Counted from the stretch's first letter, positions 53,350 through 59,837 are shown. The stretch: DNA of 64,000 bases from a candidate division WWE3 bacterium (GCA_014729135.1 WJKK01000001.1:794919-858918); one strand, 5' to 3'. The notes: generated by a model not told the origin, from the letters alone. Numbers and translations: made by a program.

Positions 53350-53631
53350 CTACTCCCCTTCCTCCGGAGATAGCCCCACATAAACATCAACACCGTTCTC
53401 ATCCACACTCAACAACCCCGAATCAATATCAAAACTCTTCTCATGCGGAGTCCCCTTATCCAAAACCACCGTATCCTTAATTAAAGAAATGAAGTTGGCA
53501 TGCTCCGGCAAGACGTCAAAATCCCCTACATCGTTAACAGAGCTTAAAGCTTTCGCCATACCTTCAAACAAAACCTTACGGCGATCGCGAATAGAAACTT
53601 TTAAATCGGGAAGAGTGTCTATGTTTTTCAT
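53350..53631 (-). CDS. atpC: F-type ATP synthase epsilon subunit (short, N-terminal beta-sandwich only)
   Basis: 93 aa; [43 protein letters not shown] resembles the epsilon N-domain; last gene of the operon downstream of beta. Confidence 0.6.
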
Positions 53632-55193
53632 TCTTTCGAGAGTGTATCCAAGCCTGCTATATACAAAAATTTATCCGCAGAAACGGTGTCATAGTTACCA
53701 TCCAGGATATCCTTAACATCTGCTACGGTGGTCTCCAAGGGAACATAAACGCCCTCCTTGCCCACCTGCTTAGCTGTTACATGGAAGTTTTGTGTCATGT
53801 AATTCTTTATCTTTTGGGCACGGCGATAAGTAATTCTGTCGGTTTCACTTAACTCGGACTCCCCTACTAAGGAGACGATCCTCTCCAGGGATTGGGCTTC
53901 CTTAAGCAAACTACGCGCTTCCAAAGCCACTTGATAATGCAAAGTGGTTACAGTTCCGGGACTCAAAGCACTGGAGTCGGACGCCAACATGTCTACGGCG
54001 GGAAACCTCCCTTCCTGATAAATATCACGTGATAAAACAATTTCCGAATCCAAATAGCGGAAAATGGCTTGAACAGCACTGTCCAAAATGTCATCAGCTG
54101 GCACATAAATTGCCTCAATAGATGTAACGTGTGCATCCCGGGTGGATATTAAACGCTCGTGAAGATTGGCTAGCTCCGAAACTAACTTAGGTTGATAGCC
54201 GTCTTCAGAAGGGATGCTACTCATTAAAAGGGAGATCTCATTACCCGCCTGGGCATAGCGGAACATGTTGTCAACAAAAAACAGGACATTTTTCTTTTGT
54301 TTATCCCTAAAGTACTCGGTTAGCGCTACCCCCGCATGAGCTGCTAAAAACCTCATGGAAGGACTTTCACCCATTGTCCCGTAAACTAATGCCGTGTTAT
54401 CCAAAACACCCGTATCTCCCAACTCTGCATACAGCTCATGACCTTCACGAGTACGCTCCCCAACACCGGCAAACACTGAAACGGTGTTCTCTTTATTCTT
54501 GTTCAGTATATTGTGTAAAATTTCAGTTAACAGCACAGTTTTTCCTACACCGGCACCGCCAAACAACCCTATCTTACCCTCACCAATTAAGGGAGCAAAT
54601 AAATCCAGGACTTTAATACCCGTTTCAATAGGTGTGTGTTTATTAGATATAATTTCGTACTTTGGCGCATCTCCTTGCAGACCAACATACTCCTCAACTT
54701 CAACGGAATCTTTACCATCTCTAAACTCACCCAAGGCGTTTATGACCCGCCCCAAAACTTTATCTCCCACCGGTATCTTTATATGACGACCTGTGCAATA
54801 TACTGACGCACCTCTATAGTAATTTTTGATATCCGACAAAGCAATGCAGTAAAAACGATCCTTTCCTGATGATTCAAAAACCATTAAAGAACCGGCACCC
54901 TCTTCATGAGAGTCCATCTCTTTAATACGCTCCTCAGTACCCACAACTAAAACTTCATTTATTTCGGGCTTTTTGTCGGTTAAAAACTCAACCTCAATAA
55001 CGTGGCGCTTTATTCCCACAATACTGCCAATAACTCCCTCGGTATAGGAAATGTTTTCCTTGGATAGTTGCTTAACGGAGGCAGCCTCCACTTCCGTTGC
55101 AGAAGGGACGTCCCCGTTACTATGTTTAAACACCTTATCCTCCTTACCTTCCCTATTATTAACATTTGTCATATCTTTACTATTATCGTCCAT
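53628..55193 (-). CDS. atpD: F-type ATP synthase beta subunit with an N-terminal extension of about 60 aa
   Basis: [17 protein letters not shown]-loop, [13 protein letters not shown] and AIYVPADD. Confidence 0.9.
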
Positions 55194-56064
55194 ATAAAAC
55201 TCCTGCTAAAAGCGTGTTTTTGGCACGATCCTTTTCACGATGATCCAAGATCGACTGCTCCAGCTTCAATTTTTCTAAATTACGGGACGCACTACTTGTG
55301 GCCCTATCTAAACTTACCATTCGAGAGGTATATTTGCTAAGGGCAGATTCATAAAGGGCATGTTCAAACAAAGAGGATTTAATCTCGCTTTCAAAAAACT
55401 CAAAAATCTCCTCTAAACTGGGCTCAAAAATCGAACGAATAACACGCATGTCCTCTCTTGTCTCCATAGTTACGGCATCACCGGAAACTCCTGTTTGCTC
55501 GGGCATTTGCTCCAAAATATCCTTAAACTTGCCATGAAATAACAAAACATTTTCATACTCTGACAGCTTTTCCATTATTTCATGGATTTCATCTGGATTG
55601 GGATCACCATCAGATAAATCAAAATAAAGAAACGGCTTGTTAGGAAAACGCTCTTGAAACCACAACTTCCCTACCCTGCCCAAGACCGCCACTTCTACCG
55701 TAGGGTCTACTTGCTGTGCAAAGTACTCAAAAACTTTTCGAACAATGTCACCATACAAACCGGTGTTTGCCGAAGCTAAAACAATAATGTCACGACCATT
55801 TTTTCGCGTAAAGTTCATCTTATCTATGTAACGAGCTTGTTCCTCCTCATCAGTAATACCCTGGCGCTTCAACAACTCCTGAAGAGTGTCTCTATATGAC
55901 AGTTTTACACGCGCAAAAACGGAGGAAAGTCCCGATAAAAACTCACGGTTGCGCAAGACGTTGTCCTTCATTTTGCGCATTCGCATAGCAGCCACCTCCT
56001 GATAGGTTTGAGCCATAACCTTAAAAACCTCTAATTGTTCCACTTGCTTGTCTATTTTTGTCAT
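55183..56064 (-). CDS. atpG: F-type ATP synthase gamma subunit
   Basis: Coiled-coil N and C termini; [19 protein letters not shown]; positioned between alpha and beta. Confidence 0.8.
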
Positions 56065-58175: not shown

Positions 58176-58904
58176 CTAGCTCTCAAAAACCTCATTCCTT
58201 TTAGCCTCCTCCAAAACCTTCAAAACATAGTCCTCATGATCCTTCAAACTCAAACTCTTCCCAATAATCGCCTTAGCAGCACTCTGCACCACACGCTCCA
58301 CCGAATCCCCTATTCTCTCCTTTTGCGCTGCCTTATACCGCGTCAACTCAGTCTGCATGTCCTCACGGGATTCTCTCAACGCCACCTCCAAGCTCTTCCT
58401 AAAAGCCTGCAGCTCATTAGCCATCTCATCCTTAAACTCTTGGGACACACCCTTCATAGCCTCCAAGTTTTCCTTAGACGCCTCCAATAAAGCCTTGCGA
58501 TTAACCTTTAGCAGATTCTCCGAGGATTCGCTAAGAAACTCCTGACTCTCCTCTGAAAACTCCTCAACCTGCTCATCCAAAGCTTCTGTCATATCTTGTC
58601 CTAACACATTTGCATCCGACAAAATCTTGCCGGCGCGCTTATTTGCCTCCTCTACAATCTCAAAGGCCTGTCGCTTAGCCTCATCCAGCGTCTCAGAAGC
58701 CTCCTCAAACTCCTCCTCCTTACACTCCTCCAGAGAAGACGCCTTAGATAAAAGGTTGATGAAAAAGGAACTTAAAGCGAAAAACAAAACAAAAAGTAAA
58801 ACAAATGACAAAATTGCCAAAGGAATAAGATATTCAGCTGATGGATAAGGCGGAAAGTTAATTCGGAAAGCTTGACCTATTGTTTCTAAAATGGGCAGAT
58901 TCAT
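58176..58904 (-). CDS. atpF: F-type ATP synthase b subunit (single N-terminal TM helix plus a long coiled coil)
   Basis: Architecture and position in the operon; the sequence is low-complexity and E/K-rich. Confidence 0.5.
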   Translation of the reverse strand: MNLPILETIGQAFRINFPPYPSAEYLIPLAILSFVLLFVLFFALSSFFINLLSKASSLEECKEEEFEEASETLDEAKRQAFEIVEEANKRAGKILSDANVLGQDMTEALDEQVEEFSEESQEFLSESSENLLKVNRKALLEASKENLEAMKGVSQEFKDEMANELQAFRKSLEVALRESREDMQTELTRYKAAQKERIGDSVERVVQSAAKAIIGKSLSLKDHEDYVLKVLEEAKRNEVFES

Positions 58905-58958
58905 TTTTATAAAGACCTTTCTTTAGTTATTTTTTATCTCCGGTTAGTTATAAATTAG

Positions 58959-59837
58959 TTATAAAACCAAGATCAAATATGATAATACTATACCTACAAT
59001 CATTATGCCAAACGTAAAAATAAAGTTGAATACTACGGCGGATTTGATGTCGCGCCCCGCTAGAGGGTTTCTTCCCAGCGCCTCCACACTCTTCCCTGAG
59101 ATCTTGCCAAAGGATGAAAAACCTACGATAAAGCTAGCTATAACCACCATAGCCGAAATCAAGTAACGAAATGTTGTTAAGGGACTTAAGATTGGAGCTG
59201 TTGCACCGGTCTTTAAAAAGTTAAGTAGGTTTTTCTGCGAACGGTTAGGAATATAGGCACTCTTTATATCAATGTGCGCCAAAATTACGCTGGTTGCATC
59301 GGTGTTTTCGTTAGCATAATCCTCTAAGGCCGTTCCAATGACATATCCGCTAACGTCAGCTTTTTGAGCAACGCCCTCTATTGAAGAGGAAGTCAAAAAA
59401 TCGCCCATTTTAATGTCGCCGTTTATGGTAGAAACCTTTATGTAAGCCTCCCCGGAGGAGATAACGCGAATGGAATTTTCCGCGTCTAAGGTGCGGTCGT
59501 TTAGGGCAATTGCCGGCTCCTCAACAACAACTCCGTACATGTTTTCATGGTAGTCTTTTTGGGCATACGTGTATTCGCCGTCCTCAACTACAATGAGGTC
59601 GCCTGTTTCGGCTTCAGCGGAGTCAAAAGGAATGGTGATGGCAATTCTGGAGGTTTGAGCATGGGCTTGTTTGGGCTTTAAGGAAAGTAAAAATTCGATT
59701 GGAGTGATCCCGGAAAACAGAAACCCAAAGGCCAAAAACGCAACTGTAAAAGCAAGAACACGAATACTTTCAAGATCTAAAATGGATCCTTTTCCTTCTA
59801 TTTTACTGACAAATTTTCTCATGGCGGGCAGTTGCAT
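58959..59837 (-). CDS. membrane protein whose C-terminal hairpin resembles an ATP synthase c subunit, fused to an N-terminal TM helix and a roughly 170-aa soluble domain of unknown function
   Basis: The C-terminus [67 protein letters not shown] has a helix-loop(RNP)-helix layout like c subunits (ARQP/ARNP loop), but no acidic residue is visible in helix 2. It occupies the atpE position in the operon. Confidence 0.4.

What the first reader, a model, noticed from the sequence alone, without database searches (positions are those of the whole stretch)
53350..59837. F-type ATP synthase operon lacking an a subunit, with a fused and carboxylate-less c-like subunit
Gene order c-like/b/delta/alpha/gamma/beta/epsilon is canonical. 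However, the position where atpB (a subunit) normally precedes atpE is occupied by 1.45 kb of non-coding DNA. The atpE-position gene (58959-59837) encodes 292 aa: an N-terminal TM helix, a roughly 170-aa soluble beta-rich domain, and then a c-subunit-like helical hairpin with an RNP loop (GRNPLAGRD) but with [11 protein letters not shown] where the ion-binding Glu/Asp should sit. Alpha and beta look catalytically intact (P-loops present). The a subunit may be encoded elsewhere. If it is not, the complex could not translocate ions in the standard way and may act as an ATPase-driven device with an unknown membrane partner.
Basis: partly seen in the sequence, partly recalled or inferred. Interest (0 to 1): 0.65.

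Follow-up and report, generated by a model that had tools for sequence, protein, structure and literature searches.

The report
F-type ATPase without ion-translocating parts
A candidate-phylum (WWE3) bacterium carries a complete, apparently active F1 ATPase motor. Its membrane ring subunit has lost the ion-binding acid, has gained an exported fibre-like domain, and has no subunit a gene next to it, so the machine probably burns ATP to do something other than make ATP or pump ions.

Summary
On the minus strand, 53350-59837 encodes c-like/b-like/delta/alpha/gamma/beta/epsilon. Alpha and beta are bona fide F1 subunits with intact catalytic motifs.

The 292-aa first gene has three parts: a signal/anchor helix, an exported beta domain, and a C-terminal hairpin. 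The hairpin superposes on F-type c subunits and keeps the F1-docking E..GRNP loop. Phe276 sits where the ion-binding Glu should be.

This is a lineage trait, not a defect of this genome:
- None of 120 homologues has a helix-2 carboxylate.
- 86 distinct loci (WWE3, Levy-, Woese-, Ames-, Shapirobacteria, Microgenomates) keep the same gene order.
- None of these loci has an a-like gene.

The 1.45-kb gap is not an atpB slot. It is an unusually long divergent intergenic region (about 70-1100 bp in relatives) facing a giant surface protein with an N-terminal MerR helix-turn-helix domain. That protein is a conserved neighbour.

The ectodomain has the fold of phage phi29 gp12-type appendage or tail-fibre C-terminal domains. 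The same domain recurs inside some of the giant neighbours.

Best reading: a non-ion-translocating, hydrolysis-driven "F1-X0"-type rotary ATPase, comparable to the Mycoplasma F1-like X0 ATPases. The oddity was noted in 2013 (Kantor et al.) but never explained. Genome-wide absence of subunit a could not be tested here.

The parts
53350..53631 (-). Epsilon subunit, 93 aa. It has the N-terminal beta-sandwich only and lacks the C-terminal helical domain.
   Evidence: Pfam ATP-synt_DE_N E 6.5e-9, covering profile positions 1-77 of 80. The median length in 71 related loci is 88 aa.
53628..55193 (-). F1 beta subunit, 521 aa, with an N-terminal extension of about 55 aa.
   Evidence: TIGR01039 atpD scores 463.9 bits against a cut-off of 462.85. 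Best PDB matches are Bacillus PS3 and ancestral F1 beta, E 7e-115. [21 protein letters not shown] and ESELSETD align.
55183..56064 (-). Gamma subunit, 293 aa.
   Evidence: Pfam ATP-synt E 6.6e-23.
56061..57629 (-). F1 alpha subunit, 522 aa, with an insertion of about 37 aa at residues 104-140.
   Evidence: Pfam ATP-synt_ab E 3.4e-61. PDB F1 alpha E 1.8e-84. GDKKSGKT aligns to the P-loop and GNRPAV to the Arg-finger region. It scores below the atpA equivalog cut-offs.
57638..58132 (-). Delta (OSCP) subunit, 164 aa.
   Evidence: Pfam OSCP scores 28.3 bits against a cut-off of 22.3. Only the C-terminal part of the profile is matched.
58176..58904 (-). b-like peripheral-stalk protein, 242 aa. It has one N-terminal hydrophobic helix followed by a long charged helical region.
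   Evidence: NCBIfam subunit B E 0.0015. PDB subunit b 9o19_X and 7p2y_b, E 0.002-0.003. It holds the same operon position in 84 loci.
58959..59837 (-). c-like fusion protein, 292 aa (NCBI GF360_04350, annotated as hypothetical).
   Evidence: AlphaFold2 model with mean pLDDT 87.9.
58962..59183 (-). c-subunit-like helical hairpin, aa 219-292. The E252..G255-R-N-P258 loop is retained. Phe276 sits at the canonical Glu position. Asn271, Thr275 and Tyr287 are conserved. Helix 1 has a 6-residue deletion at the GxGxGxG region.
   Evidence: Pfam ATP-synt_C does not match, even at E 10.
59223..59654 (-). Exported beta-rich ectodomain, aa about 62-205.
   Evidence: Foldseek against BFVD finds phage 'preneck appendage' and tail-fibre C-terminal domains at E 7e-12 to 1e-9, rmsd 2.3-3.5 A over about 140 residues. 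Foldseek against PDB finds phi29 gp12 C-terminal fragment 3gqh and capsid decoration proteins at about 1e-4.
59655..59837 (-). N-terminal signal or anchor helix, ending in AHA-Q.
   Evidence: Helix 22-51 in the model. A hydrophobic stretch followed by an A-x-A motif is conserved while the sequence itself is not. Cleavage is inferred.
59838..61292 (.). Divergent intergenic region, 1455 bp, non-coding by every test applied. A promoter-like site (TTTCCA-17-TATACT) ends 7 nt before the c-like ATG.
   Evidence: There is no similarity to relatives' spacers except 61 nt in L013.
61066..61128 (.). One cluster of a dispersed palindromic mini-element (GGACAGTCC / GGACTGTCC, 16-nt spacing). It is not specific to this locus.
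61293..64000 (+). 5' part of a giant gene that runs off the window. It encodes an N-terminal MerR-type helix-turn-helix domain (aa 25-72), a basic linker, a hydrophobic segment at about aa 169-200, then a Thr/Gly-rich fibre-like region. It is a conserved divergent neighbour of the operon.
   Evidence: Pfam MerR E 4.8e-12. Homologous neighbours of 1928 to more than 4651 aa occur in L001, L002, L006 and L007.

Best explanation
This is the normal ATPase operon of the WWE3/Microgenomates branch of the candidate phyla radiation. It is an F-type-derived rotary ATPase whose membrane sector can no longer translocate ions.

**Shown here.**
- A catalytically competent F1 head (alpha, beta, gamma), with an epsilon that lacks the C-terminal helical domain.
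- Delta and a b-like stalk are retained.
- The first gene encodes a very divergent c subunit. It keeps the cytoplasmic E..GRNP loop and has a hydrophobic residue where the ion-binding Glu or Asp belongs.
- Its N-terminus carries an exported domain with a phage-fibre C-terminal fold.
- No subunit a gene accompanies the operon in any relative examined.

**Inferred.**
- The c-like hairpins form a ring under gamma and epsilon.
- ATP hydrolysis turns this ring, with its crown of ectodomains, against the b-delta stator. The work is therefore delivered on the outer face of the membrane rather than to an ion gradient.
- The conserved neighbouring giant protein (MerR helix-turn-helix domain, one membrane helix, fibre-like exterior) is the likeliest partner. 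Alternatively it regulates the operon.

Functionally this would resemble the Mycoplasma F1-like X0 ATPases, which use cytoplasmic ATP hydrolysis for cell-surface tasks.
For: **F1 is intact.**
- Beta matches F1 beta at E 7e-115, with the P-loop, catalytic GERTREG, YVPADD and a DELSEED-like ESELSETD.
- Alpha matches at E 2e-84, with the P-loop and the GNRPAV Arg-finger region.
- Gamma, delta and epsilon match their Pfam families.

**The first gene is a c-subunit homologue.**
- NCBIfam c-subunit models, E 1.2e-4.
- A profile of the hairpin against PDB c subunits, E 2e-4.
- hhalign probability 90.5%.
- Model superposition of 1.2-1.8 A on c subunits 9itt_I, 6n2d and 2wie.

**The ion site is lost.**
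- Glu62 of the Spirulina c subunit aligns to Phe276.
- In 120 homologues, positions +9 to +34 after the loop Pro contain no Asp or Glu. Position +18 is Phe, Ala, Ile, Val, Ser or Gly.

**The loop is the most conserved part of the protein.** E252, G255, R256, N257, P258 and A260 are invariant.

**The family is large.**
- 605 clusters (at 50% identity) match at E below 1e-30.
- 232 species-level genomes carry it.

**Gene order is near-universal and there is no a-like gene.**
- c-like > b-like > (delta) > alpha > gamma > beta > epsilon is kept in all but a few of 93 loci.
- No E. coli AtpB-like ORF, tblastn hit or Arg-motif hit was found in any locus.
- No polytopic membrane ORF lies next to the operon.

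**Epsilon is short throughout the family.** The median length is 88 aa. By established knowledge, the missing C-terminal domain is the one that inhibits hydrolysis in bacterial F1.

**Link to the neighbour.**
- A divergent MerR-domain ORF lies within 2 kb upstream in 58 of 80 loci. This holds even where the other flank differs.
- The ectodomain profile hits inside six giant neighbours, E 2e-21 to 3e-9.

**Literature.**
- A complete WWE3 genome was reported to have no recognisable a, b or c subunits (PMC3812714).
- The Mycoplasma Type 3 F1-like X0 ATPase is required for an extracellular function. [quoted passage not shown]
Against: - Genome-wide absence of subunit a was not tested. Only 7% of the contig is in the window.
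- No experiment or multimer model shows that the c-like protein forms a ring or binds gamma and epsilon.
- The retained peripheral stalk has no identified fixed membrane anchor. Rotation against a single b-like helix floating in lipid would be futile unless something holds it.
- The alpha N-terminal tail that normally binds delta is about 12-19 residues shorter than in E. coli or Bacillus (and my recollection of the E. coli sequence).
- The link to the giant neighbour could be purely regulatory. MerR-type regulators are classically transcribed divergently from their targets. It could also be inherited gene order.
- Only 6 of 83 large ORFs carry the shared ectodomain.
- The MerR-type domain of the giant protein and the HTH_17-like domain fused to some long c-like forms show no pairwise similarity.
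Confidence: 0.6

Rival explanations
1. This is a conventional H+ or Na+ ATP synthase/ATPase. Subunit a is encoded elsewhere or is too divergent to recognise. The c-like ring binds the ion through a non-canonical site, for example the conserved Asn271, Thr275 and Lys/Arg245.
For: - The complete set of F1, delta and b genes is kept. That is what a coupled enzyme needs.
- Asn (116 of 120), Thr (113 of 120) and Lys/Arg (120 of 120) are conserved at mid-membrane depth near the lost site.
- The rest of the genome was not searched.
Against: - No characterised rotor ring works without a membrane carboxylate (established knowledge of F, V and A-type c rings).
- None is present in 120 of 120 homologues.
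- Six residues, including the helix-1 position that helps coordinate the ion in Spirulina, are deleted.
- None of 86 distinct loci has an a-like gene.
- A complete WWE3 genome was reported without a recognisable subunit a.
Confidence: 0.1
2. F1 is a static, membrane-tethered ATPase. The c-like protein and b-like protein only anchor it, or anchor the ectodomain. ATP hydrolysis serves another purpose, such as regulation or assembly and export of the giant surface protein, with no productive ring rotation.
For: - No stator anchor (subunit a) is present.
- The ectodomain resembles the phi29 gp12 C-terminal domain. From my own knowledge, that domain is an assembly chaperone of a fibrous protein.
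- The same domain occurs in giant neighbours.
Against: - Catalysis by F1 requires gamma to rotate (established).
- Gamma, epsilon, delta and b-like are all retained under selection across the loci examined. This is hard to explain if no torque is transmitted.
- The F1-docking loop is the most conserved part of the c-like protein.
Confidence: 0.15
3. The operon is a decaying relic of an ATP synthase in a reduced genome and no longer does anything.
For: - Subunit a is missing, the c ion site is lost, and alpha and beta are divergent. Alpha scores below the equivalog cut-offs.
- The host belongs to a genome-reduced lineage.
Against: - All seven ORFs are intact here and across relatives.
- Catalytic motifs are preserved.
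- The hairpin has 71% mean column identity across a selection of 24 distinct hairpin sequences.
- The operon sits inside the secE-nusG-rplKA / rplJL neighbourhood.
Confidence: 0.05
4. The 292-aa protein is an unrelated membrane protein that merely sits upstream. Its resemblance to subunit c is convergent, as any two-helix hairpin might show.
For: - Pfam ATP-synt_C gives no hit.
- Sequence E-values are modest, 1e-4 to 1e-6.
Against: - It is the first gene in the operon in all but a few of the related loci.
- It has an invariant E..GRNP loop at the position of the c-subunit RQP loop.
- It is 24-27% identical to real c subunits, with 1.2-1.8 A rmsd.
- Three independent methods give the same alignment register.
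Confidence: 0.05

Closest known systems
Canonical bacterial F1Fo ATP synthase (atpBEFHAGDC)
   Same: - The gene order from c onward is the same.
- Alpha, beta, gamma, delta and epsilon are homologous.
- There is a b-like stalk.
- The c-like protein has the hairpin fold and the cytoplasmic R(Q/N)P loop.
   Different: - No subunit a gene accompanies the operon.
- The c-like protein lacks the ion-binding carboxylate, has a 6-residue deletion in helix 1, and carries an exported N-terminal domain of about 145 aa.
- Epsilon lacks its C-terminal domain.
- Pfam ATP-synt_C does not match.
Mycoplasma Type 3 'F1-like X0' ATPase (MSC_0618/0619 family; PMC3369863, PMC12994834)
   Same: [quoted passage not shown]
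- There is no a subunit and no ion-binding c subunit.
- One component has a signal peptide, a large ectodomain and two C-terminal membrane helices.
- The ATPase is needed for an extracellular task (MIB-MIP antibody cleavage).
   Different: - Here delta and a b-like stalk are present.
- The two-helix membrane protein is still recognisably a c subunit.
- There is no 12-helix membrane protein.
- NCBIfam scores fall far below the MSC_0618/0619 cut-offs (376 vs 570 bits; 252 vs 520 bits).
- The Mycoplasma clusters are extra copies beside a genuine F1Fo. Whether that holds here is unknown.
Mycoplasma mobile gliding motor (Type 2 F1-like / G1-ATPase, PDB 9io5)
   Same: - An F1-derived ATPase is thought to power movement of giant surface proteins.
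- Alpha here matches G1-ATPase alpha almost as well as genuine F1 alpha (E 4e-80 vs about 1e-80).
- Giant surface-protein genes are associated with it.
   Different: - From my own knowledge, the gliding motor forms dimeric cytoplasmic chains and is not known to have a c-like ring, delta or b.
- No motility is known for WWE3.
- NCBIfam glide_MMOB1660/1670 cut-offs are not met.
phi29 gp12 (preneck appendage) C-terminal domain and related phage tail-fibre C-terminal or capsid decoration domains
   Same: The ectodomain of the c-like protein shares this fold.
   Different: - Here the domain is fused to a rotor-ring hairpin rather than to a fibre.
- Sequence-level matches to Pfam and PHROGs are below threshold.
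MerR-family regulators transcribed divergently from their target operon
   Same: A gene encoding a MerR-type helix-turn-helix domain faces the operon across a shared intergenic region in most loci.
   Different: - In WWE3 the domain is the N-terminus of a membrane-anchored protein of 2000-4600 aa. In some Microgenomates it is a stand-alone protein of 73-77 aa.
- No effector-binding domain and no shared operator were found.

Membership tests
F-type ATP synthase, F1 sector | Alpha and beta subunits with a P-loop, a catalytic Glu and an Arg finger; a gamma shaft; an epsilon beta-sandwich | tested here: met
   Beta just reaches the atpD equivalog cut-off (463.9 vs 462.85). Alpha falls below the atpA cut-offs but matches PDB F1 alpha at E 2e-84.
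F-type ATP synthase, peripheral stalk | A delta/OSCP subunit and a membrane-anchored b subunit | tested here: inconclusive
   Delta passes the Pfam OSCP threshold, but only over the C-terminal part of the profile. b-like has only weak hits, E 0.0015-0.003. Architecture and operon position fit.
F-type ATP synthase, Fo sector | Subunit a (ATP-synt_A) with the essential Arg, encoded with the operon | tested here: not met
   There is no a-like ORF or tblastn hit in the window or in 92 related loci. Presence elsewhere in the genome is not testable with these tools.
F-type ATP synthase, Fo sector | A c subunit with a membrane-embedded Asp or Glu in helix 2 | tested here: not met
   Phe276 aligns to Glu62 of the Spirulina c subunit. 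None of 120 homologues has a carboxylate there.
ATP-synt_C (PF00137) / NCBIfam c-subunit equivalogs | A score above the curated cut-off | tested here: not met
   Pfam gives no hit, even at E 10. The best NCBIfam score is 22.6 bits against a cut-off of 128.
c-subunit fold and F1-docking loop | A two-helix hairpin with a conserved R-(Q/N)-P cytoplasmic loop | tested here: met
   The model superposes at 1.2-1.8 A on c subunits. E..GRNP is invariant in the family.
Mycoplasma F1-like X0 ATPases (Types 2 and 3) | NCBIfam MSC_0618_beta / MSC_0619_alpha or glide_MMOB1660/1670 scores above cut-off; no delta or b; a 12-helix X0 protein | tested here: not met
   Scores are 376 vs 570, 252 vs 520, 375 vs 600 and 374 vs 850 bits. 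Delta and b-like are present. No 12-helix protein lies beside the operon. The resemblance is functional and architectural only.
N-ATPase (alternate F1Fo) | TIGR03305 / TIGR03324 scores above cut-off | tested here: not met
   Scores are 389 vs 752 and 328 vs 750.5 bits.
MerR-family transcription regulator (the neighbouring gene) | An N-terminal MerR helix-turn-helix domain plus a dimerisation helix and an effector-binding domain; a palindromic operator in the divergent promoter | tested here: inconclusive
   The helix-turn-helix domain is met (PF00376, E 4.8e-12). No effector-binding domain was seen. No operator is shared among relatives. The palindromes in the spacer belong to a dispersed element.

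The most novel reading that the evidence does not exclude
The complex is an ATP-driven rotary motor that transmits torque or force across the membrane to the cell surface.
- The c-like ring carries a crown of fibre-type C-terminal domains.
- That crown docks or assembles the neighbouring giant fibre protein, which is membrane-anchored and begins with a MerR domain. In some lineages the giant protein contains the same domain.
- Cytoplasmic ATP hydrolysis would then move, tension or assemble a surface appendage. Such an appendage could be used for attachment to host cells.

This would be a second, independent invention of an F1-powered surface machine, after the Mycoplasma ones. [quoted passage not shown]
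Probability: 0.15. Interest if true: 0.9.

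Novelty: new variant of a known kind. Interest (0 to 1): 0.68.

Why it matters
**Metabolic reconstruction.** Reconstructions of candidate-phyla-radiation bacteria routinely count "complex V" as a way to make ATP from, or to build, an ion gradient. A 2026 review does so (PMC13293708). 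For the whole WWE3/Microgenomates branch (at least 232 species-level genomes) the membrane half of the enzyme lacks both parts that move ions. That assumption is therefore probably wrong for these organisms, and their energy budget needs re-reading.

**Rotary ATPases.** This would be a natural F-type motor that keeps both stalks and a c-type ring but has been uncoupled from ion flow and given an extracellular domain. It would be the first case outside the Mollicutes of an F1 motor re-used for something else. It is a directly testable model for how such re-use evolves.

Tried and rejected
**A decayed atpB or an RNA gene in the 1.45-kb gap. Rejected.**
- No ORF is longer than 88 aa.
- The small ORFs have no Pfam hit.
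- The only Rfam matches are chance-level microRNA hairpins on the palindromes.
- There is no tblastn hit to AtpB.
- There is no blastx or blastn conservation with relatives, apart from 61 nt.

**The GGACAGTCC palindromes as a MerR operator. Rejected.** The same element occurs at four other sites in the window, including inside dnaX and a penicillin-binding protein gene.

**A shared operator among relatives' spacers.** None was found.

**A 58-aa hydrophobic ORF (59923-60099, same strand, with a promoter-like site upstream) as an AtpI-like or a-like remnant.**
- It is not conserved in any relative.
- It has no significant Pfam hit.

**Same-strand ORFs upstream of c-like in Levybacteria loci (about 315 aa).** By eye these are soluble Fic-like proteins with a C-terminal winged helix. 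They are not membrane proteins.

**Homology between the giant protein's MerR domain and the helix-turn-helix-like N-terminus of the long c-like forms.** BLASTP gives no alignment.

**Tool failures and empty searches.**
- The look-up of encoding contigs has no record for the window's own c-like protein.
- Literature searches for a later description of this variant found nothing beyond Kantor et al. 2013.
- No supplementary tables were held for that paper.

Full report
**What is in the sequence**

The minus strand of 53350-59837 carries seven closely packed ORFs. From the promoter-proximal end they are:
- a 292-aa protein (58959-59837)
- a 242-aa protein with one hydrophobic helix and a long charged helix (58176-58904)
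- delta (57638-58132)
- alpha (56061-57629)
- gamma (55183-56064)
- beta (53628-55193)
- a 93-aa epsilon (53350-53631)

Pfam and NCBIfam assign alpha, beta, gamma, delta and epsilon to the F1/OSCP families.

Beta aligns end to end with solved F1 beta subunits, best with Bacillus PS3 and ancestral F1 at E 7e-115. [21 protein letters not shown] and a DELSEED-like ESELSETD are all in place.

Alpha matches F1 alpha at E 2e-84, with GDKKSGKT and the GNRPAV Arg-finger region.

The 242-aa protein resembles subunit b only weakly (E 0.0015-0.003). It does hold the b position in the operon in every relative.

Epsilon consists of the beta-sandwich only. Across 71 related loci its median length is 88 aa. 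The C-terminal helical domain is therefore missing throughout the lineage. By established knowledge, that domain inhibits hydrolysis in bacterial F1.

**The first gene**

The AlphaFold2 model, built on 120 homologues, has mean pLDDT 87.9. It shows:
- an N-terminal helix (22-51)
- a beta-rich domain (about 62-205)
- two long helices (219-256 and 258-291)

The helical pair superposes on solved c subunits from Chloroflexus, Bacillus PS3, Spirulina, chloroplast and bovine enzymes. The rmsd is 1.2-1.8 A over 66-70 residues, with up to 27% identity.

Sequence methods agree with this, though weakly:
- NCBIfam c-subunit models: E 1.2e-4, far below cut-off.
- A profile of the hairpin against PDB: E about 2e-4 for c subunits 2wie, 3v3c and 4mjn.
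- hhalign: 90.5% probability.
- Pfam ATP-synt_C does not match at all.

The two sequence alignments place Phe276 opposite the ion-binding Glu (Glu62 of Spirulina c). They also show a six-residue deletion in helix 1, at the GxGxGxG region.

Across 120 homologues there is no Asp or Glu anywhere in the membrane part of helix 2. The canonical position holds Phe, Ala, Ile, Val, Ser or Gly. By contrast, the cytoplasmic loop E-x-x-G-R-N-P-L-A is invariant or nearly so. In canonical enzymes the equivalent R-Q-P loop is the docking site for gamma and epsilon (established knowledge). Its conservation argues that the protein still sits under the F1 central stalk.

The N-terminal helix is variable in sequence but always ends in an A-x-A motif. 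I read it as a signal peptide. That places the beta domain outside the cell, which fits the N-out topology of ordinary c subunits. This step is an inference.

**The ectodomain**

- Foldseek against predicted viral structures gives strong matches: E 7e-12 to 1e-9, rmsd 2.3-3.5 A over about 140 residues, 22-28% identity. The targets are a domain in phage "preneck appendage" proteins and in the C-terminal parts of large tail-fibre-like proteins.
- Against PDB it matches the phi29 gp12 C-terminal fragment and several capsid decoration proteins at about 1e-4.
- Pfam and PHROGs give only sub-threshold hits.

**Is this peculiar to the window?**

No. The protein is NCBI GF360_04350 from a candidate division WWE3 bacterium, on an 864-kb contig. 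Its family is large:
- 545 homologues in the word-indexed search
- 605 clusters (at 50% identity) at E below 1e-30 in the exhaustive search
- 232 species-level genomes in the GTDB-based collection

By record titles, the 80 loci listed from those genomes belong to WWE3, Levy-, Woese-, Ames- and Shapirobacteria, other Microgenomates and unclassified Patescibacteria.

I called ORFs in 92 fetched loci plus the window and labelled them with phmmer, using the window's own proteins as queries.
- The order c-like > b-like > (delta) > alpha > gamma > beta > epsilon is kept in all but a few loci.
- In all but a few loci the c-like gene is the first of these genes. In some Levybacteria an unrelated soluble gene lies directly upstream (see below).
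- No ORF resembles E. coli AtpB.
- No tblastn hit to AtpB, E. coli c or Spirulina c appears in any locus or in the window.
- No polytopic membrane ORF adjoins the operon.

Kantor et al. 2013 described a complete WWE3 genome. [quoted passage not shown] So the anomaly was noticed but not analysed. I found no later treatment of it.

**The 1.45-kb gap**

The region 59838-61292 is non-coding by every test I could apply. It is not an empty atpB slot, for three reasons.
- A long plus-strand gene starts at 61293, so the gap is a divergent intergenic region.
- In relatives the same region is much shorter, about 70 to 1100 bp.
- Apart from 61 nt shared with L013, its sequence is not conserved.

A promoter-like site ends 7 nt before the c-like ATG. 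Its palindromic GGACAGTCC cluster (61066-61128) belongs to a dispersed mini-element: 14 copies at five sites in the window, against 0.32 expected by chance.

**The neighbour**

The plus-strand gene begins with a MerR-type helix-turn-helix domain (PF00376, E 4.8e-12). A basic linker follows, then one hydrophobic segment, then a Thr/Gly-rich fibre-like region that runs off the window.

Homologous genes of 1928 to more than 4651 aa occupy the same divergent position in every WWE3-like locus I inspected. This includes loci where the other flank of the operon differs.

Among 80 distinct loci with enough upstream sequence, 58 have a divergent MerR-domain ORF within 2 kb. That is an underestimate, because only one query sequence was used.

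In some Microgenomates the partner is instead a stand-alone MerR protein of 73-77 aa. There the c-like protein itself is longer (390-573 aa), with an N-terminal HTH_17-like region that scores below the Pfam threshold, ahead of the membrane helix. That region and the giant protein's MerR domain show no pairwise similarity.

A profile of the c-like family matches, through its ectodomain part, inside six of the giant neighbours, E 2e-21 to 3e-9.

**How it most likely works**

Shown:
- F1 with intact catalytic machinery.
- Central-stalk and peripheral-stalk genes retained.
- A c-type hairpin with the docking loop but without the ion site.
- No a gene beside the operon in any relative.
- An exported fibre-type domain on the c-like protein.

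Inferred:
- The hairpins form a ring.
- F1 catalysis needs gamma to rotate, and the stator genes are kept under selection. The ring therefore still turns relative to b-delta.
- No ion path exists, so the only place where work can be done is the ectodomain crown or whatever it touches.

The nearest precedent is the Mycoplasma F1-like X0 family. The Type 3 complex is required for the extracellular MIB-MIP antibody-cleavage system. [quoted passage not shown] Type 2 is the gliding motor (PDB 9io5).

Membership in those families is not supported. Their NCBIfam cut-offs are missed by wide margins, delta and b-like are present here, and the 12-helix X0 protein is absent. The comparison concerns mode of action, not ancestry.

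**Rivals and limits**

- **A conventional ion-coupled enzyme with subunit a encoded elsewhere.** This cannot be excluded without the whole genome. It would need an unprecedented carboxylate-free ion site.
- **A static anchor or assembly role.** This fits the fold shared with the phi29 gp12 C-terminal domain, but it leaves the retained stator and rotor genes unexplained.
- **Decay.** This is contradicted by conservation across hundreds of genomes.
- **The link to the giant neighbour.** It may be regulatory, since MerR-type genes are typically divergent from their targets, rather than mechanical. I could not separate the two.

**Verdict**

The feature is real, characteristic of the lineage, and only superficially noted in the literature. 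I rate it a new variant of a known kind (F1 motors on non-Fo membrane sectors) and of substantial interest.

Noticed in passing
window 61293-64000 (+); L001 1206-9914, L002 3811-9597, L006 1-7240, L007 1-7803: Giant proteins (1928 to more than 4651 aa) share one layout: an N-terminal cytoplasmic MerR-type helix-turn-helix domain, one membrane helix, and a huge fibre-like exterior. They are a conserved divergent neighbour of the ATPase operon. A DNA-binding domain at the start of a giant surface protein is unusual in itself.
   Followed up: partly
L020 1091-8716 (aa 2119-2239), L082, L006, L085, L092, L024: The ectodomain of the c-like subunit has homologues inside some of the giant neighbours, E 2e-21 to 3e-9.
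   Followed up: partly
P0233, P0254, P0256, P0259, P0257; loci L009, L010, L012: Long c-like forms (390-573 aa) carry an extra N-terminal region ahead of the membrane helix. That region is HTH_17-like but scores below the Pfam threshold. In these loci a stand-alone MerR gene of 73-77 aa replaces the giant as the divergent neighbour.
   Followed up: partly
window 14118-14168, 31201-31280, 34493-34525, 35247-35276, 61066-61128: A dispersed palindromic mini-element (GGGGACAGTCC...GGACTGTCCCC, 16-nt period) occurs as 14 copies, against 0.32 expected. Two clusters lie in frame inside dnaX (about aa 355-370) and a penicillin-binding protein gene (about aa 165-190). This recalls the Rickettsia palindromic elements, which insert into coding sequence.
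   Followed up: partly
window 50973-53186 and 53350-64000; L001, L004, L007: The ATPase operon and the giant gene sit between rplA and rplJ, inside the otherwise universal secE-nusG-rplK-rplA-rplJ-rplL cluster.
   Followed up: partly
window 53628-55193 and 56061-57629: Beta has an N-terminal extension of about 55 aa. Alpha has a Ser/Gly-rich insertion of about 37 aa (aa 104-140) between the N-terminal barrel and the nucleotide-binding domain. Relatives are shorter (median 465 and 494 aa), so both features appear specific to this genome. The alpha tail that normally binds delta is short.
   Followed up: no
L050, L051, L056, L057, L063, L069, L073, L082 (directly upstream of c-like, same strand): In Levybacteria-type loci a soluble protein of about 315 aa precedes the c-like gene. 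It has a Fic-like motif (HPFxxGNGR) and a C-terminal winged helix. This reading is by eye only; no Pfam scan was run.
   Followed up: no
window 59844-59872 (-) and 59837: A promoter-like site (TTTCCA-17-TATACT) ends 7 nt before the c-like ATG, and there is no Shine-Dalgarno sequence. The first gene may be translated from a leaderless mRNA.
   Followed up: no
window 59923-60099 (-): A 58-aa hydrophobic ORF lies 86 bp upstream of the c-like gene on the same strand. An extended -10 promoter-like site (60147-60175) precedes it. It is not conserved in relatives and has no family match, so it is probably spurious.
   Followed up: partly
L006 8842-10542: In one relative a phosphoglycerate mutase (iPGM) gene is inserted between the c-like and b-like genes.
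   Followed up: no
record titles (e.g. L013, L016, L044, L050): Many third-party-annotated MAG records that carry this Microgenomates/WWE3-type operon are titled 'uncultured Candidatus Saccharibacteria' or 'Gammaproteobacteria'. These are probably mislabelled taxonomic assignments.
   Followed up: no
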